Notes: generated by a model not told the origin, from the letters alone. Numbered from the stretch's first letter, positions 52,338-60,805 are shown. The stretch is DNA of 64,000 nucleotides from Eubacteriales bacterium (GCA_045536775.1 JAZSOD010000085.1:10281-74280); one strand, 5' to 3'. Translations and numbers: made by a program.

Positions 52338-54632
52338 TCAGAGCTTGTTTCGCTGAATCTTTCCGCTTACAGTCTTGGGGAGACTCTCCCTGAATTCAAC
52401 CACTCTCGGATACTTATATGGAGCCGTCTTTTCCTTGACGTAATTCTGAATCTCACGCTTCAGCTCGTCGCTCGGCTCCTTACCGTTGACAAGAACGATA
52501 CTCGCCTTTACGATCTGCCCTCTTACCTCGTCGGGAACTGCCGAAACACCGCATTCAAGAACGTAAGGAAGCTCCATAATTACACTCTCGATCTCGAACG
52601 GACCGATGCGGTAACCAGATGACTTTATAACGTCATCAACTCGTCCTACGTACCAATAATATCCGTCCTCATCGCACCATGCAACATCTCCCGTATGGTA
52701 ATAACCGTCATGCCATACCTCGCGGGTCTTTTCTTCGTCACCGTAGTAACCCGTGAACAAACCGCAGGGGGCGCCGTTTCTGATATCTATAACGATCTCT
52801 CCCGACTCACTCGTCTTAACGGGGTTTCCATCAGCATCCTGAAGCTCGACCTTATAAATGGGAGCAGGCTTACCCATAGAACCTATCTTGTGGGGCTTTC
52901 CTACGAGATTACCGATTATCATCGTGCTTTCGGTCTGACCAAAGCCCTCTTTAATCTGAAGTCCGGTCGCCTTTTCAAACTGACGGTACACCTCGGGATT
53001 AAGCGCTTCTCCTGCTGTTGTCATATGACGTACAGAAGAAAAATCGTATTTTGAAATGTCCTGCTTTACCATCATACGAAGCATTGTAGGAGGTGCGCAG
53101 AAGGTTGTTATATGATACTTTGCAAACATAGGAAGTATATCCGCTGCATCAAAACGGTCAAAATCATAAACGAAGGTTGCCGCTTCACAGAGCCACTGTC
53201 CGTAGAGCTTGCCCCACATTGCCTTTGCCCAACCGGTATCGGATATTGTAAAGTGAAGCCCGTCGGGATCAACGTTATGCCAATATTTTGCCGTATGGAA
53301 ATGTCCAAGCGGGTATTTGTGGTTATGAGTTGCGATCTTCGGATATCCCGAGGTTCCCGAGGTGAAGTACATGAGCATAGTATCCTCACCGCAAGGAGAA
53401 TCCTCAGTCCTATCGAAGTGTGTACTGAAGCGCTTGTATTCCTCGTCGAAATCTCTCCAACCATCTCTCGCGCTTCCGACAACAAGCTTATTTATAAGCG
53501 TCGGACACTTGACTGCCGCAAGGTCCACCTGATTTGCAACATCGCCATCGCCCGTACAAACTATCGTGCTTACACCTGCAGCATTGAAGCGGTATTCGAG
53601 ATCGTGCTCGTGAAGCTGGTCAACTGCAGGAATTGCAATCGCTCCAAGCTTATTAAGTCCGAGCATAGCTATCCAGAACTGATAATGACGCTTTAAGATA
53701 AGCATTACTCTATCGCCCTTCTTAATTCCGAGCGAAGCAAAGTAGTTTGCACACTGATTGGATGCTCTTCTCATATCGGTAAATGTAAAGCGTCTTTCTG
53801 TCTTGTCCTTTGATATGTGGAGCATAGCAAGCTTTTCGGGTTCACGCTTTGAAAGCTCGTCAACAAGGTCAAAGGCAAAGTTGAATTTGTTTTCATTTTT
53901 GAAAGTTATAGACGTGGGCGTACCACTTTCGTCTTCAACGATATCAATAAAATTATGGTAAATTCTGTCCTTTGTATCTCTGTGGACCGAACCGATTATC
54001 TGCTCGGTTTTAACGATATCCGAGGTTGCTGATTCCGAAACGTCAACGTCACCTCTAAGAACTATGGCATAGAACTTACAATCCTTACCGTTTACCGCTA
54101 TCATACCGTGCGGAGTATCGGAATTATAGTAAATGCTATCACCGGGGCCAAGGACCTCCTTGTGATCACCAACCTGTACCATAAGGTGGCCTTCTATTAC
54201 GATATCACATTCTTGGCCCGCGTGAGTTGTAAGCTCAATATCTCTGTTCTGCGCAGACTCATCGTAAGAGCTGAGAACGTAAAGAGGCTCAGCAATGCGG
54301 TTTTTGAAGGCGTAAGCAAGATTGTGATATATCATACCGTGCGCCTTAGCTATCTGCTGTCCCGCACCTGCTCTTGTTACGGTATACGATTTAAGATTAG
54401 GGCTATAACCCTCGATAATATCCGTTACGTTTACTCTGAGCGCCGCGGCACAACGGTAAATAAACGCAAAGTTGAGATCAGACTCGCCGTTCTCACATCT
54501 GACGTATTCTTCGACCGTAATTCCCGTCTTCTCGGCCATTTCTTCGGGAGTGTAGTTTTCGATGATTCTGAGCTCACGGATACGCTCCGCCATCTCTTTG
54601 ATCTTAAGATTAATGTCTCTTAGGTTTTCCAT
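52338..54632 (-). CDS. Fusion protein: XRE-type HTH + cupin domain + medium-chain acyl-CoA synthetase-like adenylate-forming enzyme
   Basis: The track ORF (to 54755) is an artefactual extension through the T-box terminator. The real start is ATG 54632 (MENLRDINL...) after AGGAGA. The HTH reads YTPEEMAEKTGITVEEYVRCENGESDLNF. The cupin reads HAGQECDIVIEGHLMVQVGD...PGDSIYYNSDTPHG. AMP-binding motifs are YFTSGTSGYPK, ISDTGWAKAMW, GYYHTGD, SSGYRIGPFEIES and the C-terminal SGKIQR. Confidence 0.85.
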   Translation of the reverse strand: MENLRDINLKIKEMAERIRELRIIENYTPEEMAEKTGITVEEYVRCENGESDLNFAFIYRCAAALRVNVTDIIEGYSPNLKSYTVTRAGAGQQIAKAHGMIYHNLAYAFKNRIAEPLYVLSSYDESAQNRDIELTTHAGQECDIVIEGHLMVQVGDHKEVLGPGDSIYYNSDTPHGMIAVNGKDCKFYAIVLRGDVDVSESATSDIVKTEQIIGSVHRDTKDRIYHNFIDIVEDESGTPTSITFKNENKFNFAFDLVDELSKREPEKLAMLHISKDKTERRFTFTDMRRASNQCANYFASLGIKKGDRVMLILKRHYQFWIAMLGLNKLGAIAIPAVDQLHEHDLEYRFNAAGVSTIVCTGDGDVANQVDLAAVKCPTLINKLVVGSARDGWRDFDEEYKRFSTHFDRTEDSPCGEDTMLMYFTSGTSGYPKIATHNHKYPLGHFHTAKYWHNVDPDGLHFTISDTGWAKAMWGKLYGQWLCEAATFVYDFDRFDAADILPMFAKYHITTFCAPPTMLRMMVKQDISKYDFSSVRHMTTAGEALNPEVYRQFEKATGLQIKEGFGQTESTMIIGNLVGKPHKIGSMGKPAPIYKVELQDADGNPVKTSESGEIVIDIRNGAPCGLFTGYYGDEEKTREVWHDGYYHTGDVAWCDEDGYYWYVGRVDDVIKSSGYRIGPFEIESVIMELPYVLECGVSAVPDEVRGQIVKASIVLVNGKEPSDELKREIQNYVKEKTAPYKYPRVVEFRESLPKTVSGKIQRNKL

Positions 54633-54644
54633 TTCTTCTCCTTT

Positions 54645-54925
54645 TATGAGGCATAAAAAAATCGCCCCAAAGTAAAGTAAAAACTTTGAGACGAGTGTAA
54701 ATTCACCCGCGGTACCACTCAAATTGCGATAAAATCGCCACTCCGGGTCAAACAACCCTTATGCATTAACGCAGCAATCACGGAAAGGTTCTACTCGCTT
54801 TCGCTTTCTTCCTTCCGGCTCGGAAGCTACAAACAACTCCACTCACCCATGGCTCGCACCGACCGCCATTTCTCTCAAGGGTTTATGTAAGATGCCCTCT
54901 TCGTCAAAGCCTTTATATGTGTTAA
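54645..54925 (-). promoter_or_regulatory. T-box riboswitch leader (tRNA-sensing transcription attenuator)
   Basis: Read in the minus-strand sense. Stem I base with K-turn is GGCTTTGACGAAG...CTTCCGAGCC. The AG-bay is TTGAGAGAA and the distal loop is GGTCGGTGCGA. An F-box-like GCGTTA and Stem III GCGATTTTATCGC follow. The T-box is AATTTGAGTGGTACCGCGGGTG. The antiterminator is TTTGAG[TGGTACC]GCGGGTG-AATTTA-CACTCGT-CTCAAA. It competes with the terminator CGTCTCAAAGT-TTTTACTTT-ACTTTGGGGCG + A-T7 (54654-54693). The ATG is 22 nt downstream. Confidence 0.9.
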
Positions 54926-54952
54926 TATACCACAATTAAATAAATCTGTCAA
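54924..54952 (-). promoter_or_regulatory. Promoter of the T-box leader
   Basis: The minus strand reads TTGACA (54947-54952), 17 nt, TGG-TATATT (-10 at 54924-29, extended -10 TG). Confidence 0.65.
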
Positions 54953-54976
54953 TACTTTGACAAGATTTTTATAAAT

Positions 54977-55009
54977 TACAGCCGCAGTAATCTAAACTGC
55001 GGCTGTAAT
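54977..55009 (-). terminator. Terminator after putP
   Basis: TTACAGCCGCAGT-loop(7)-ACTGCGGCTGTAA, a 13-bp perfect stem followed in the minus sense by ATTTATAAAAATC. Confidence 0.75.
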
Positions 55010-55016
55010 ATGTAAT

Positions 55017-56552
55017 TTAGTCATCAATACTGTTATCAGTTGCTTTTTCAAAAATAGCATTGACCTCAGCGGAGGGAGCTTTATCGATGAGCGTAACGAT
55101 AATAGCGGCAATTCCACCAATTATAAATCCCGGAATGATCTCATAAACACCTGTAACTGCGCCAAGAGTATTTCCTCCGACAACGGGAAGCCAGAGCCAA
55201 CACATATCAACGAGTGCACCTACGATTATGCCGGCAACAGCTCCTTTATATGTAAATCTTTTCCAAAAGAGTGAGAAAAGAACAACAGGTCCGAATGCCG
55301 CTCCGAATATGCCCCATGCATTTGAAACGAGATCCATAATAGCCTGTGCAGCCTTACCCTTACTGCTTGCAATAAAGTAAGCAATAACAGCAATTACAAG
55401 TACCACAACACGGCTAACCCAAAGCATTTCTTTATTAGAAGCATTTTTTCTAACGAGCGGCTTATAAAGGTCGCTTGAGAACGATGATGCCGCAACGAGA
55501 AGCTGTGAATCCGCCGTCGACATAGACGCCGCAATAATCGCAGCAAGAAGAAGTCCTGCTATGAAAGCGGGGAAAACATCACGAGCAAGCTCGACAAATA
55601 TAAGCGACTGTTTTCCTTCGGCAAGAAGCTTTGCAGAAAGATCTACGCCGTTAGAATATACGAACATTCTTCCGAGATAGCCTATAGCAATAGTTGCGGC
55701 GAGCGAAAGAACGACCCATATAATAGCAACGGTAGCAGATTTCTTTACCATCGACGGCTTCTTGATAGCCATAAATCTGACAATAATATGAGGCATACCG
55801 AAGTAACCGAGACCCCAGCCGAGACCCGAGAGAATTTCCTGCCAGCTTGCATTAAAGAAAGTAGAAACGAACTTAAACTCTTCGCCGTTAGGTCCTGTAT
55901 ATATAGTATTTATTGCGTTAGGATCAAGGTCCTTAACAGATACTATAGTTATCGGAACTATAAGAAGCGCGGCAATCATAAGAAGTCCCTGGAAAAAGTC
56001 TGTCCAACAAACTGCCCTAAAGCCGCCAAGGAAGGTATACGCAAGAACTATTGCCGCAAATATAAGCATGGCGGTCGTTCTCTGAAGCTCGGGCACGAGC
56101 GTTGTGAAAACGTCAGCGCCTGCAACGAATGCCGATGCAACATATATCGTGAAGCATACAAGGAACACTATAGCGCAAATAATACTTACGGTATGGCTCT
56201 TGGATGCAAAACGATTGGACAAATACTGAGGAAGTGTTATAGCATCACCCGACGCCTTAGAAAACTTGCGAAGTCTCTTGGCAACAAGTATCCAGTTAGC
56301 TGCAGTACCGATTGCAAGACCGATACCGATCCAAGCCTGTCCGAATCCGAACGCAAGAATGCTTCCGGGAAGTCCCATAAGAAGCCAAGCGCTCATATCG
56401 GATGCCTGAGCACTCATAGCCGTAACCCAAGGTCCCATCTCTCGTCCGCCGAGGAAGTAATCCTTTTCAGTCGTTGCCTTGGACTTGAAAAAGAAAAACA
56501 GGCCAATGGCAATCATAGCAACAAAATATAAAGAAAACGCTAATATGTCCAT
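55017..56552 (-). CDS. putP: Sodium/proline symporter (SSF family, PutP-like)
   Basis: 511 aa. DYFLGGREMGPWVTAMSAQASDMSAWLLMGLPG, GWGLGYFGMPHIIVRFMA and AWGIFGAAFGPVVLFSLFW closely parallel E. coli PutP motifs as I remember them. Confidence 0.88.
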   Translation of the reverse strand: MDILAFSLYFVAMIAIGLFFFFKSKATTEKDYFLGGREMGPWVTAMSAQASDMSAWLLMGLPGSILAFGFGQAWIGIGLAIGTAANWILVAKRLRKFSKASGDAITLPQYLSNRFASKSHTVSIICAIVFLVCFTIYVASAFVAGADVFTTLVPELQRTTAMLIFAAIVLAYTFLGGFRAVCWTDFFQGLLMIAALLIVPITIVSVKDLDPNAINTIYTGPNGEEFKFVSTFFNASWQEILSGLGWGLGYFGMPHIIVRFMAIKKPSMVKKSATVAIIWVVLSLAATIAIGYLGRMFVYSNGVDLSAKLLAEGKQSLIFVELARDVFPAFIAGLLLAAIIAASMSTADSQLLVAASSFSSDLYKPLVRKNASNKEMLWVSRVVVLVIAVIAYFIASSKGKAAQAIMDLVSNAWGIFGAAFGPVVLFSLFWKRFTYKGAVAGIIVGALVDMCWLWLPVVGGNTLGAVTGVYEIIPGFIIGGIAAIIVTLIDKAPSAEVNAIFEKATDNSIDD

Positions 56553-57897: not shown

Positions 57898-57975
57898 TGG
57901 GGTGAGATATCGGATTCGAACCGACGGCCTTCAGGGCCACAACCTGACGCTCTAACCAACTGAGCTAATCCCACC
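57898..57975 (-). tRNA. tRNA-His (anticodon GTG)
   Basis: Manual cloverleaf: G(-1) GTGGGAT TA GCTC AGTTGGTTA GAGC G TCAGG TTGTGGC CCTGA AGGCC GTCGG TTCGAAT CCGAT ATCTCAC C CCA. The encoded G-1:C73 pair is the His identity element. CCA is encoded. Confidence 0.93.
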
Positions 57976-58048
57976 GTATTTACTACAAACAATTAAGAGA
58001 TAACGGACAATGCAGTTTTCATTCCCATTATCTCTTAATGCTTGGTTA

Positions 58049-58125
58049 TGGCGTACCCTGGGGGATTCGAACCTCCGACCTACTGCTTAGAAGGCAGTTG
58101 CTCTATCCTGCTGAGCTAAGGGTAC
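58049..58125 (-). tRNA. tRNA-Arg (anticodon TCT)
   Basis: Manual cloverleaf: GTACCCT TA GCTC AGCAGGATA GAGC A ACTGC CTTCTAA GCAGT AGGTC GGAGG TTCGAAT CCCCC AGGGTAC G CCA. There is one A.C mismatch in the T stem. CCA is encoded. Confidence 0.85.
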
Positions 58126-59650: not shown

Positions 59651-60805
59651 ATGAAAACACAAAAGCTATACTATAACGATGCTTATATTTCTGAATTTGA
59701 CGCTAAGGTATTATCCTGCGATAAGACAAAGGACGGCTTTTCCGTAACGCTTGACAGAACCGCCTTCTTTCCCGAAGAAGGCGGACAGTACGCCGACAGG
59801 GGAACTCTCGGTGGAATTAATGTCACAGATGTGCGTGAAAAAAGCGGAATAATCAGCCACACCCTTCCCTCTCCCTTAAAAGTAGGCGAGACGGTACACG
59901 GCATCATAGAGTTTTCTGAACGTTATGAAAAAATGCAGTGTCATACGGGAGAGCATATCGTTTCCGGAATAGTCAGACATAAACTCGGATTTAATAACGT
60001 AGGCTTTCACCTCGGATACGACGATGTCACGATCGATTATGACGGAGTTGTCAGCGACGAGTTATTACACGAGATTGAGCTTGAAGCTAATTTTGCGATT
60101 TACGAAAATATTGAGATCAAATGTGAATTTCCGAGTGATGAAGTGTTAAAGGGGCTTGATTACAGGAGCAAGCTTGAACTGACCGAAAACATAAGGATCG
60201 TAACCATTGATGGATATGACGTATGCGCATGTTGCGCTCCTCACGTCAGACGCACCGGCGAGGTCGGTATTATCAAGCTTCTTGATAAGATAAGCTACAA
60301 GGGCGGAGTAAGAATACACATGCTTTGCGGCAAGCGTGCTCTTGACGATTACGGCGCACGTTATTCCGCAACGAAAAGCATTTCTAATCTGTTATCGGTC
60401 AAGCAATGTGACGTCGTCACAGGAGTCGAAAGACTTATATCGGAAACCGACACGCTCAAGGCTCAGTTATCGATACTTAAGAAAAGTGTACTTGCCGAAA
60501 AAATTTCATCTCTAAAAAAGTCATCAAGCAATATAATCGTTTTTGAAGAAATACTTGACGCGGGCTATATGCGCGAATTTATAAATAAAGCAGTCGAATT
60601 CACCGAGGGTATTGCCGCCGCGTTTATAAAAAAAGACGATGTATCGTTCACGTATATCATAGGAAGCAAAAACTCGGACCTCAAGTCACTTTCCTCGAGG
60701 ATGCGGGAAGAACTGTGTGCACGAGGCGGAGGTAACGCCGAAATGATAAGCGGTGCAGTTGCAAAATCAAAAGATGAAATCCTTGATTTCCTAAACAAAA
60801 AGTGA
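59651..60805 (+). CDS. AlaX-L type alanyl-tRNA editing protein (AlaRS-related, no aminoacylation domain)
   Basis: TAFFPEEGGQYADRG, with zinc/editing motifs HTGEHIVSG (HxxxH) and CACCAPH (CxxxH). A C-terminal DHHA1-like part follows. Confidence 0.8.
   Translation: MKTQKLYYNDAYISEFDAKVLSCDKTKDGFSVTLDRTAFFPEEGGQYADRGTLGGINVTDVREKSGIISHTLPSPLKVGETVHGIIEFSERYEKMQCHTGEHIVSGIVRHKLGFNNVGFHLGYDDVTIDYDGVVSDELLHEIELEANFAIYENIEIKCEFPSDEVLKGLDYRSKLELTENIRIVTIDGYDVCACCAPHVRRTGEVGIIKLLDKISYKGGVRIHMLCGKRALDDYGARYSATKSISNLLSVKQCDVVTGVERLISETDTLKAQLSILKKSVLAEKISSLKKSSSNIIVFEEILDAGYMREFINKAVEFTEGIAAAFIKKDDVSFTYIIGSKNSDLKSLSSRMREELCARGGGNAEMISGAVAKSKDEILDFLNKK

What the first reader, a model, noticed from the sequence alone, without database searches (positions are those of the whole stretch)
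52338..54632. Single polypeptide fusing an XRE HTH, a cupin sensor domain and a MACS-type acyl-CoA synthetase; candidate branched-chain acid activation enzyme
The 764-aa ORF is uninterrupted. Residues 1 to about 70 are an XRE-type HTH. Residues from about 95 to 195 are a cupin barrel (HAGQECDIVIEGH...PHG), the architecture of PuuR-like small-molecule-responsive regulators. The remaining 560 aa or so carry all adenylate-forming motifs of medium-chain acyl-CoA synthetases: YFTSGTSGYPK, DTGWAKAMW, YHTGD, SSGYRIGPFEIES and the terminal SGKIQR lysine.

A DNA-binding plus ligand-sensing module fused to a catalytic CoA ligase, itself under tRNA-sensing attenuation, gives three stacked control layers on one gene.

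The following is inference only. If the T-box senses tRNA-Val (or another branched-chain tRNA), the simplest logic is activation of isobutyrate-type short branched acids. These would feed the reductive-carboxylation route to branched-chain amino acids, which is known physiologically in ruminal and gut anaerobes.
Basis: partly seen in the sequence, partly recalled or inferred. Interest (0 to 1): 0.6.

Follow-up and report, generated by a model that had tools for sequence, protein, structure and literature searches.

The report
Valine-sensing branched-acid CoA ligase fusion
This gene encodes an enzyme that most likely activates isobutyrate so that gut and rumen Clostridia can turn it into valine; it is switched on by an RNA leader that senses uncharged valine tRNA, and it carries an extra N-terminal domain pair of unknown role that marks a large, undescribed protein family.

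Summary
A 764-aa uninterrupted ORF on the minus strand (54632 to 52338) carries HTH_3, Cupin_2, AMP-binding and AMP-binding_C. A complete T-box leader with promoter, antiterminator and terminator precedes it.

The fusion is not an artefact. At least 585 stretches in species-representative genomes, mostly gut and rumen Clostridia, encode the N-terminal module with the junction. In the 80 best loci, 96 of 99 fusion genes have a T-box.

Two paralogues exist:
- The window's type has a valine specifier (GUA, GUC or GUG) and Ala in the acyl pocket.
- The other type has an isoleucine specifier (AUC) and Gly, as in the 2-methylbutyrate enzyme MacsMa.

In about half the loci the genes head an operon: a P-loop protein, a four-subunit 2-oxoacid:ferredoxin oxidoreductase and a class IV aminotransferase.

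The "DNA-binding regulator" layer is not supported:
- The HTH is acidic.
- No conserved operator was found.
- The module's best structural matches include HppE, an enzyme.
- The cupin keeps a 2-His-1-Glu triad.

Of the 12 positions that separate the paralogues, 11 lie in this module. Its function is open. I rate this a new variant of known kinds.

The parts
54924..54952 (-). Sigma-70-type promoter: TTGACA (54952-54947), 17-nt spacer, TG-extended TATATT (54929-54924)
   Evidence: 11 of 12 matches, TG present. The same TTGACA-17-TGnTATAAT arrangement stands before nearly every orthologous leader.
54684..54916 (-). T-box leader (Stem I with K-turn, specifier loop, AG bulge, distal loop; Stem III; T-box sequence)
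   Evidence: Rfam RF00230, full model, 84.9 bits, E 5e-19. It is the only sub-threshold RNA hit in the window.
54828..54830 (-). Specifier codon GUA (valine), followed by G54827 and the closing helix CUUC 54826-54823
   Evidence: Sequence. Orthologues carry GUA 62, GUC 4 and GUG 1. The base before the codon varies, and the closing helix pairs in 86 of 88 leaders with compensatory changes.
54714..54717 (-). UGGU of the T-box bulge, which pairs with the ACCA 3' end of uncharged tRNA (discriminator A73)
   Evidence: Sequence. The UGGN:NCCA rule is from PMC7778990. All leaders examined have U at the fourth position.
54686..54722 (-). Antiterminator: UUGAG / bulge UGGUACC / GCGGGUG-loop-CACUCGU / CUCAA
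   Evidence: Rfam alignment and sequence. It shares 54693-54686 with the terminator's 5' arm.
54655..54693 (-). Intrinsic terminator: 11-bp stem CGUCUCAAAGU / ACUUUGGGGCG, 9-nt loop, then A and U7
   Evidence: Read from the sequence. The consensus scan missed it because the loop exceeds 8 nt.
54638..54644 (-). Ribosome-binding site AAAGGAG, 5 nt before the ATG
52338..54632 (-). Coding sequence of the 764-aa HTH-cupin-acyl-CoA synthetase fusion (stop codon included)
54420..54581 (-). HTH_3-like helical domain (aa 18-71); recognition-helix equivalent TVEEYVRCE
   Evidence: Pfam. The AF2 model has five helices. The domain is acidic.
54063..54239 (-). Cupin_2 barrel (aa 132-190) with conserved His137, Glu141 and His175
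   Evidence: Pfam. The three residues are invariant. They align with HppE residues 138, 142 and 180, which are its Fe ligands according to PMC7916636.
52743..53852 (-). AMP-binding (adenylate-forming) N-terminal catalytic domain, aa 261-630
   Evidence: 3ETC match
53226..53228 (-). Codon of Ala469 in DTGW-A-KAMW, the only enzyme-domain position that separates Val-type (Ala) from Ile-type (Gly) paralogues
   Evidence: Trp473, four residues on, corresponds to MacsMa Trp259 (native numbering derived by me from the chain alignment; the role of Trp259 is from PMC10455477).
52359..52595 (-). AMP-binding_C domain (aa 680-758) with the terminal SGKIQR lysine

Best explanation
The gene encodes an AMP-forming short branched-chain acyl-CoA synthetase of the Macs/MbcS kind. 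Most likely it is an isobutyrate-CoA ligase.

A valine-specific T-box leader controls its transcription:
1. Transcription starts at the promoter at 54952-54924.
2. The default fate is termination at the hairpin and U-run at 54693-54655.
3. When tRNA-Val is uncharged, its anticodon pairs with GUA (54830-54828).
4. Its free ACCA end pairs with UGGU (54717-54714).
5. The antiterminator (54722-54686) then forms instead of the terminator, and the enzyme is made.

In relatives, the isobutyryl-CoA is passed to a four-subunit 2-oxoacid:ferredoxin oxidoreductase. That enzyme carboxylates it reductively to 2-oxoisovalerate, and a class IV aminotransferase makes valine. A paralogue with an isoleucine T-box and a Gly in place of Ala469 does the same with 2-methylbutyrate.

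The N-terminal helical-plus-cupin module is a conserved, paralogue-specific and probably metal-binding part of the enzyme. I think it most likely binds a small ligand or mediates oligomerisation to tune enzyme activity, rather than binding DNA.

What is shown: the domain content, the T-box anatomy, the specifier identity, the distribution of the family, the operon context in relatives, and the link between specifier and pocket residue. What is inferred: the substrate, the direction of the pathway, and any role of the N-terminal module.
For: Enzyme:
- 3ETC (MacsMa) matches at E 6e-190 over aa 247-762.
- MacsMa prefers 2-methylbutyrate (PMC10455477).
- The best NCBIfam model is MbcS. MbcS activates 2-methylbutyrate and isobutyrate (PMC10026030).

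T-box:
- Full-length RF00230 match, E 5e-19.
- Terminator and antiterminator overlap and exclude each other.

Specifier:
- 67 Val codons (GUA 62, GUC 4, GUG 1) in the window's type and 21 AUC in the other type.
- The closing helix pairs in 86 of 88 leaders and takes six fully complementary helix types.
- TBDB reports that Val T-boxes favour specifiers ending in A or C.

Distribution:
- At least 585 matching stretches in species-representative genomes.
- 96 of 99 fusion genes are T-box-linked.
- Rfam confirms both leaders in four tandem loci.

Context:
- 41 of 80 loci have a P-loop gene and oxidoreductase subunits downstream, and 31 also have the aminotransferase.
- A delta ferredoxin subunit is present in 34 of 34 loci checked.
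- A divergent leuA-like gene carries a Leu (CUC) T-box.

Pocket:
- Val codon with Ala 49, Val with Gly 1, AUC with Gly 34, AUC with Ala 0.
- MacsMa has Gly at this site and acetyl-CoA synthetases have Ile or Val.

N-terminal module:
- 11 of the 12 paralogue-discriminating positions lie in it.
- His137, Glu141 and His175 are invariant and align with the HppE iron triad.
Against: - No oxidoreductase, aminotransferase or second paralogue lies within this 64-kb window. The closest relatives (L001-L005, L010) also carry the gene alone. In this lineage the partners are unseen.
- The window's T-box scores below Rfam's gathering threshold (84.9 against 93).
- The substrate assignment rests on one pocket position and on analogy. 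No assay exists.
- The two paralogue clades are each monophyletic. The specifier-pocket association therefore counts few independent events.
- The proposed non-DNA role of the N-terminal module rests on negative and indirect evidence. The HTH passes Pfam's HTH_3 cut-off, and its sequence neighbours in the PDB include true repressors.
Confidence: 0.62

Rival explanations
1. The N-terminal module is a true XRE-cupin transcription factor of the PuuR kind. The fusion protein binds its own or the operon's promoter and responds to a small molecule. It would then be a trigger enzyme like BirA, adding a DNA-level layer on top of the T-box.
For: - HTH_3 scores above Pfam's cut-off.
- The profile of the module hits 1Y9Q, an HTH_3-family regulator with the same two-domain layout, at E 6e-8. 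It also hits SinR, DdrO, 434 repressor and PbsX-family proteins at E 5e-5 to 1e-2.
- In the window a perfect palindrome TGTCAA-AGTA-TTGACA overlaps the -35 hexamer.
- T/A-rich inverted repeats upstream of -35 recur more often than in shuffles.
Against: - The window's palindrome is not conserved in the closest relatives.
- The recurrent repeats are A/T tracts at the position of UP elements, and the shuffle control did not preserve tracts.
- The HTH domain has a median net charge of -6 across 86 proteins.
- The recognition-helix positions are Glu-rich (TVEEYVRCE), like HppE's non-regulatory helical domain (ETPETVAAWE) and unlike SRQTINALE of a PbsX-family regulator.
- None of the 12 paralogue-discriminating positions lies in the recognition helix.
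- The best Foldseek matches are HppE enzymes.
Confidence: 0.25
2. The enzyme supplies branched acyl-CoA primers for branched-chain fatty acid synthesis, as MbcS does in Staphylococcus aureus, rather than amino-acid synthesis.
For: MbcS is the best-scoring NCBIfam model, and its role is primer supply (PMC10026030). In the window the gene has no amino-acid pathway neighbours.
Against: - The score is 441 against a cut-off of 850, so the protein is not an MbcS equivalog.
- Control by uncharged tRNA-Val or tRNA-Ile, and operon linkage to an oxidoreductase plus aminotransferase in 31-41 loci, point to amino-acid supply.
- The two uses are not mutually exclusive.
Confidence: 0.08
3. The cupin is catalytic. 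It would be a metal enzyme acting on the acid, the acyl-adenylate or the 2-oxoacid, which makes the protein bifunctional, as in the HppE, HEPD and MPnS enzymes that share its layout.
For: - Foldseek's best matches are HppE, HEPD, MPnS and Psf4.
- His137, Glu141 and His175 align with HppE's Fe ligands and are invariant.
Against: - Those enzymes use O2 or H2O2, whereas the hosts here are gut and rumen anaerobes.
- The proposed pathway needs no further chemistry.
- Similarity to HppE is weak: about 20% identity, TM 0.33-0.40, profile E 9e-4.
- A 2-His-1-Glu site is also common in non-catalytic cupins (general knowledge).
Confidence: 0.07

Closest known systems
MacsMa, medium-chain acyl-CoA synthetase of Methanosarcina acetivorans (PDB 3ETC)
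   Same: It is the closest solved relative (E 6e-190, aa 247-762). It shares the GW-x-K..W pocket segment, including the alternate pocket Trp (MacsMa Trp259 corresponds to Trp473). It prefers a short branched acid, 2-methylbutyrate.
   Different: MacsMa has no N-terminal module and is archaeal. It has Gly where the window protein has Ala469. No T-box control or amino-acid role is reported for it in the paper I read (PMC10455477).
MbcS, methylbutyryl-CoA synthetase of Staphylococcus aureus (NCBIfam NF047394)
   Same: It is the best-scoring curated family. It activates isobutyrate and 2-methylbutyrate selectively.
   Different: The score of 441 bits is far below the equivalog cut-off of 850. MbcS feeds fatty-acid synthesis, and its model (525 positions) matches only the enzyme part (aa 254-764), not the N-terminal module.
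T-box transcription-attenuation leaders (Rfam RF00230), valine and isoleucine classes
   Same: All canonical parts are present: K-turn, specifier loop, AG bulge, distal loop, UGGN bulge, and competing antiterminator and terminator.
   Different: Reviews list tRNA ligases, transporters and biosynthetic genes as the usual targets. I found no report of an acyl-CoA synthetase target in the papers searched. The window copy scores just under Rfam's gathering threshold.
XRE-cupin regulators
   Same: The same two-domain order, HTH_3 then Cupin_2. The profile match to 1Y9Q covers both domains.
   Different: Here the module is fused to a 520-aa enzyme, is acidic, and has no detectable conserved operator. 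PuuR itself was not compared.
HppE (hydroxypropylphosphonate epoxidase) and related HEPD, MPnS and Psf4
   Same: They are the best structural matches. They share the helical domain plus cupin layout. HppE's His138, Glu142 and His180 iron ligands align with His137, Glu141 and His175.
   Different: Only about 20% identity. Those are oxygen- or peroxide-using phosphonate enzymes. No phosphonate genes are nearby.
Reductive carboxylation of branched-chain volatile fatty acids to branched-chain amino acids in rumen bacteria (physiology known since the 1960s; my own knowledge, and mentioned in PMC7356843)
   Same: The gene content of the related operons matches the three steps: acyl-CoA synthetase, 2-oxoacid:ferredoxin oxidoreductase and aminotransferase. 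The hosts are rumen and gut Clostridia.
   Different: The physiology was described without these genes. I found no paper tying it to this fusion family or to T-box control.
BirA and other 'trigger enzymes' (my own knowledge)
   Same: An adenylate-forming enzyme joined to an N-terminal HTH. This is a possible model if the HTH binds DNA.
   Different: No homology was tested here, and DNA binding is unproven and doubtful.

Membership tests
ANL superfamily, AMP-forming acyl-CoA synthetase (Macs-type) | AMP-binding and AMP-binding_C domains above the curated thresholds | tested here: met
   209 bits against 29.9 and 73.7 bits against 24.5
ANL superfamily, AMP-forming acyl-CoA synthetase (Macs-type) | Core motifs: P-loop TSGTSGxPK, YxxGD, GYRIGPxEIE, and the catalytic Lys in SGK | tested here: met
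   All are present in the translation. They are conserved across the family, except in the degenerate paralogue P0124.
ANL superfamily, AMP-forming acyl-CoA synthetase (Macs-type) | Closest to Macs rather than Acs: the alternate pocket Trp (MacsMa Trp259) is present | tested here: met
   3ETC at E 6e-190 against acetyl-CoA synthetases at E 1e-54 or weaker. Trp473 aligns with the second Trp of GWGKCVW.
ANL superfamily, AMP-forming acyl-CoA synthetase (Macs-type) | ATP- and CoA-dependent activation of a short branched acid | not testable with these tools
   Needs an enzyme assay
MbcS equivalog (NCBIfam NF047394) | Whole-protein score at or above the curated cut-off of 850 bits | tested here: not met
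   441.3 bits. The window protein is related to MbcS but is not an MbcS orthologue.
T-box leader (RF00230) | Score at or above Rfam's gathering threshold (93 bits) | tested here: not met
   The window scores 84.9 bits, E 5e-19, over the full model. Of the ten leaders scored at fusion genes in relatives, three pass (96.0, 96.3 and 106.5 bits) and seven fall below 93 (65.2-88.8 bits).
T-box leader (RF00230) | Stem I with a specifier loop closed by a base-paired helix; AG bulge and distal loop | tested here: met
   Rfam alignment. The closing helix pairs in 86 of 88 leaders with compensatory changes.
T-box leader (RF00230) | T-box sequence with a UGGN bulge inside an antiterminator that competes with a terminator followed by a U-run | tested here: met
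   Read from the sequence: 54722-54686 against 54693-54655
T-box leader (RF00230) | Read-through dependent on uncharged cognate tRNA | not testable with these tools
   Needs in vitro transcription or a reporter assay
XRE-family HTH transcription factors with a cupin sensor (PuuR- or 1Y9Q-like) | HTH_3 followed by Cupin_2 in one chain | tested here: met
   The profile hit to 1Y9Q covers both domains, E 6e-8.
XRE-family HTH transcription factors with a cupin sensor (PuuR- or 1Y9Q-like) | A conserved operator (inverted repeat) at regulated promoters | tested here: inconclusive
   No shared palindrome at 92 promoters other than A/T tracts. The search was simple, and the targets could lie elsewhere.
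XRE-family HTH transcription factors with a cupin sensor (PuuR- or 1Y9Q-like) | A recognition helix with polar or basic DNA-contacting residues | tested here: inconclusive
   The helix is TVEEYVRCE, with Glu42 nearly invariant. The domain's median net charge is -6. This is suggestive against DNA binding but is not a test of binding.
XRE-family HTH transcription factors with a cupin sensor (PuuR- or 1Y9Q-like) | Sequence-specific DNA binding | not testable with these tools
   Needs EMSA or ChIP
HppE-like helical-domain-plus-cupin metalloenzymes | A 2-His-1-Glu metal triad at the HppE positions | tested here: met
   His137, Glu141 and His175 align with HppE residues 138, 142 and 180, which are its ligands according to PMC7916636.
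HppE-like helical-domain-plus-cupin metalloenzymes | Overall structural superposition | tested here: inconclusive
   Foldseek E 1.6e-11, but TM 0.33-0.40 and rmsd about 17 A. The model's mean pLDDT is 74. Both domains match, but their relative placement does not.
HppE-like helical-domain-plus-cupin metalloenzymes | Metal binding and catalysis | not testable with these tools
   Needs biochemistry

The most novel reading that the evidence does not exclude
The HTH-cupin-synthetase family is the missing, dedicated entry enzyme of the pathway by which rumen and gut Clostridia build valine and isoleucine from isobutyrate and 2-methylbutyrate. It would have two independent specificity filters:
1. An Ala/Gly switch in the acyl pocket selects the acid.
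2. A paralogue-specific, metal-binding cupin senses a pathway metabolite, such as the cognate 2-oxoacid or amino acid, and throttles the enzyme allosterically.

The tRNA-sensing T-box would set transcription. The 'HTH' would then be a repurposed helical domain that does not bind DNA, as in HppE.
Probability: 0.3. Interest if true: 0.8.

Novelty: new variant of a known kind. Interest (0 to 1): 0.68.

Why it matters
Many fibre-degrading rumen and gut bacteria need branched-chain volatile fatty acids. That these acids are carboxylated to amino acids has been known physiologically for decades, and isoacids are fed to cattle for this reason. In the papers I could search, no genes are tied to this route.

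This family gives a concrete, widespread and easily recognised gene set. It pairs Val- and Ile-specific T-box leaders with synthetases that differ at one pocket residue, followed by the oxidoreductase and aminotransferase. That makes the route predictable from genomes and testable by simple assays and an A469G swap.

It also adds an unusual target class to T-box regulation. And it shows a large protein family in which a domain annotated as a DNA-binding HTH may have a different job, which is a caution for automated annotation.

Tried and rejected
- Cysteine (UGU) as the specifier was rejected. The Rfam alignment register allowed UGU followed by A. In orthologues the base before GUA varies (U, C, G), while GUA changes only to GUC or GUG. 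The UGGU bulge implies discriminator A73, whereas bacterial tRNA-Cys carries U73 (the last point is my own knowledge).\n- The window's palindrome at the -35 hexamer as a family operator was rejected. It is not conserved in L001-L005 or elsewhere.\n- A search for recurrent inverted repeats and 7-mers at 92 promoters returned only the -35 and -10 hexamers, the leader start and A/T tracts.\n- A second paralogue, an oxidoreductase or an aminotransferase in the window: tblastn found none.\n- A homologue search with the N-terminal 215 aa alone returned mostly fragments of the fusion family from short contigs. It gave no clear stand-alone relatives, so the origin of the module stays open.\n- Minimum-free-energy folding of the whole leader was uninformative (z = 0.17). 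The covariance model and the comparative data were used instead.\n- Literature searches for the fusion, for T-box control of acyl-CoA synthetases and for the genes of the reductive route found nothing directly relevant. Two key T-box reviews could not be read.\n- A full-length structure prediction was not run. The tool returns no coordinates or contacts, so it could not show how the module docks on the enzyme.
Full report
**The observation**

The ORF is on the minus strand. It runs from ATG 54632 to the stop at 52340-52338 and encodes 764 aa. An AAAGGAG ribosome-binding site sits five bases upstream.

Pfam places four domains, all above curated cut-offs: HTH_3 at aa 18-71, Cupin_2 at 132-190, AMP-binding at 261-630 and AMP-binding_C at 680-758.

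The fusion is not a sequencing artefact. A search of about 5.8 billion proteins returned more than 120 clusters at 83-97% identity. All are 751-765 aa with the same domain order, and sources name them only "AMP-binding protein" or "cupin domain-containing protein". Full-length members also exist at 45-63% identity.

**The enzyme part**

The closest solved structure is the Methanosarcina acetivorans medium-chain acyl-CoA synthetase 3ETC (E 6e-190, aa 247-762). It is far ahead of acetyl-CoA synthetases. That enzyme prefers 2-methylbutyrate (PMC10455477).

The best NCBIfam model is MbcS of Staphylococcus aureus, which activates 2-methylbutyrate and isobutyrate (PMC10026030). At 441 bits against a cut-off of 850, the window protein is a relative and not an equivalog.

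**The leader**

A strong promoter stands at 54952-54924: TTGACA, 17 nt, then a TG-extended TATATT. A full-length match to the T-box model follows at 54916-54684. It scores 84.9 bits, E 5e-19, just under Rfam's gathering score of 93.

The expression platform can be read directly from the sequence:
- The antiterminator at 54722-54686 carries the UGGU bulge at 54717-54714.
- It shares bases 54693-54686 with the 5' arm of an 11-bp terminator hairpin at 54693-54663.
- A U7 run follows the hairpin.

No other T-box or riboswitch lies in the window.

**Relatives**

I scanned one genome per species with an alignment of the first 300 aa, which spans the junction. The 80 best loci come from gut and rumen Clostridia, under names such as Acutalibacteraceae, Oscillospiraceae, Ruminococcus, Christensenellaceae and Saccharofermentans.

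In these loci, 96 of 99 fusion genes with enough upstream sequence have the T-box core 60-330 nt before the start. Two of the three exceptions are second genes that start 17 nt after another fusion gene. Rfam confirmed full-length T-boxes before both fusion genes in four tandem loci (73-106 bits).

**Two paralogues with two specifiers**

About half the loci carry two fusion genes in tandem. They are 60-68% identical to each other.

- The window's type (about 762 aa) has GUA (62), GUC (4) or GUG (1) at the specifier position.
- The other type (about 755 aa) has AUC (21).

The reading register is fixed by the 4-bp helix that closes the specifier loop. It pairs in 86 of 88 leaders and takes six fully complementary forms: GAAG/CUUC, GGAG/CUCC, GAAA/UUUC, GGAA/UUCC, GGGG/CCCC and AGGG/CCCU.

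The alternative reading UGU (Cys) fails for two reasons. The base before GUA varies, and all leaders have UGGU, which pairs with an A73 discriminator. The UGGN:NCCA rule is from PMC7778990. That tRNA-Val and tRNA-Ile have A73 and tRNA-Cys has U73 is my own knowledge.

**Operon context**

I clustered the neighbouring ORFs and found a recurrent order:
1. The Ile-type synthetase.
2. The Val-type synthetase.
3. A 221-aa P-loop NTPase (CbiA/ParA-like).
4. A 68-aa two-cluster ferredoxin subunit, present in 34 of 34 loci checked.
5. Oxidoreductase alpha (POR_N plus PFOR_II), beta (TPP_enzyme_C) and gamma (POR) subunits.
6. A class IV aminotransferase.

The P-loop gene and oxidoreductase subunits occur in 41 loci and the aminotransferase in 31. 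In nine loci a leuA-like gene lies divergently upstream. In L043 and L044 it has its own T-box with a CUC (Leu) specifier.

Induction by uncharged tRNA fits synthesis, not degradation.

The window itself has none of these partners within 64 kb. Its neighbours are a PutP-type symporter with its own terminator upstream and an M20 dipeptidase with its own promoter downstream. The closest relatives, L001-L005 and L010, are likewise solitary.

**Specificity-determining positions**

I compared 58 Val-type with 21 Ile-type proteins. Only 12 positions are conserved within each type yet differ between them.

One of the 12 lies in the enzyme domain. Position 469 is Ala in the Val type and Gly in the Ile type, in DTGW-x-KAMW. 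Across all full-length genes, the specifier and this residue go together:

| Specifier | Ala469 | Gly469 |
|---|---|---|
| Val codon | 49 | 1 |
| AUC (Ile) | 0 | 34 |

MacsMa, the 2-methylbutyrate enzyme, has Gly here. Acetyl-CoA synthetases have Ile or Val. Trp473, four residues on, corresponds to MacsMa Trp259, the pocket-defining Trp (I derived the numbering from the alignment). A one-methyl difference in the side chain matches the one-carbon difference between isobutyrate and 2-methylbutyrate. This is inference. The two clades also mean few independent events.

**The N-terminal module**

The other 11 discriminating positions (11, 59, 60, 73, 78, 94, 97, 100, 102, 112, 117) all lie in the N-terminal 195 aa. 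The module is therefore under paralogue-specific constraint and is not a relic.

Several results bear on what it is:
- A model of aa 1-215 (mean pLDDT 74) shows five helices and a cupin barrel. Confidence is low at residues 96-111, where many of the discriminating positions sit.
- Its best structural matches are HppE, HEPD, MPnS and Psf4. These are enzymes with a helical domain plus cupin. The putative regulator 1Y9Q ranks close behind.
- A profile search puts 1Y9Q first (E 6e-8) and HppE at E 9e-4.
- In that alignment, the family-invariant His137, Glu141 and His175 fall on HppE residues 138, 142 and 180. Those are its iron ligands (PMC7916636).

Several results argue against DNA binding:
- The helical domain is acidic, with a median net charge of -6 over 86 proteins.
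- Its recognition-helix equivalent is Glu-rich.
- I found no conserved operator at 92 promoters.

I therefore do not accept the "DNA-binding regulator" layer as shown. I rate it about one in four. I favour a ligand- or metal-binding or oligomerisation module that tunes the enzyme. That view rests on indirect evidence.

**Comparison with what is known, and novelty**

Each piece is known separately: T-box attenuation, Macs/MbcS-type synthetases, XRE-cupin and HppE-like modules, and the physiology of reductive carboxylation. In the searchable literature I found nothing on several points:
- the fusion itself;
- T-box control of an acyl-CoA synthetase;
- the paired Val/Ile specifier and Ala/Gly pocket pattern;
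- the operon as the genetic basis of the route.

Two major T-box reviews could not be read, so prior mention cannot be excluded. I rate the finding a new variant of known kinds, with good interest for rumen and gut microbiology and for T-box biology.

Noticed in passing
window 54947-54962 (-), extended 54942-54968: A perfect palindrome TGTCAA-AGTA-TTGACA overlaps the -35 hexamer of the T-box promoter. It is not seen in the closest relatives' promoters.
   Followed up: partly
window 55017-56552 (-) and 54975-55009: The upstream gene is a PutP-type sodium/proline symporter (it passes the TIGR02121 cut-off). A 14-bp hairpin follows it and separates it from the T-box promoter.
   Followed up: partly
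L081 4493-6769 (protein P0124): A diverged fusion paralogue (45% identity) has lost catalytic motifs: QSYSYGMAK for TSGTSGYPK, HTGT for HTGD, and NGVVIR with no catalytic Lys. It follows an Ile-T-box fusion gene without its own T-box, and a class I/II aminotransferase lies downstream. It may be a pseudo-enzyme.
   Followed up: partly
L043 2640-2879 (-), L044: A divergent leuA-like gene (HMGL-like plus LeuA_dimer) next to the synthetase pair has its own T-box with a CUC (Leu) specifier. One locus therefore carries Leu, Ile and Val T-boxes.
   Followed up: partly
e.g. L011 8302-8968; 41 loci: A conserved 221-aa P-loop NTPase (CbiA/ParA-like) always sits between the synthetase and the oxidoreductase genes. 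Its role is unknown.
   Followed up: no
proteins P0125, P0141, P0128, P0187: Other Macs-type synthetases carry different fused domains. P0125 and P0141 have a C-terminal GNAT acetyltransferase, P0128 has a glyoxalase/VOC domain, and P0187 has a PAS-histidine kinase-receiver array.
   Followed up: no
window protein aa 96-111 (window about 54300-54347): The lowest-confidence stretch of the N-terminal model coincides with the densest run of Val/Ile-type discriminating positions (94, 97, 100, 102, 112, 117).
   Followed up: no
promoters of L027, L028, L034, L043, L059 and others: T-run/A-run inverted repeats such as TTTTTTGAAAAAA or TTTTTGCAAAAA lie just upstream of the -35 hexamer in about a fifth of the leaders. 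They could be UP elements or a weak operator.
   Followed up: partly
window 57898-58125 (-), 59651-60805 (+): tRNA-His(GTG) and tRNA-Arg(TCT) genes, and a 384-aa protein with tRNA_SAD and an alanyl-tRNA-synthetase-like segment (AlaX-like).
   Followed up: no
L014 2136-2324 (-); L082 3020-3152 (+): A 6S RNA gene lies next to the synthetase pair in L014. A SAM-I/IV riboswitch lies downstream of the fusion gene in L082.
   Followed up: no
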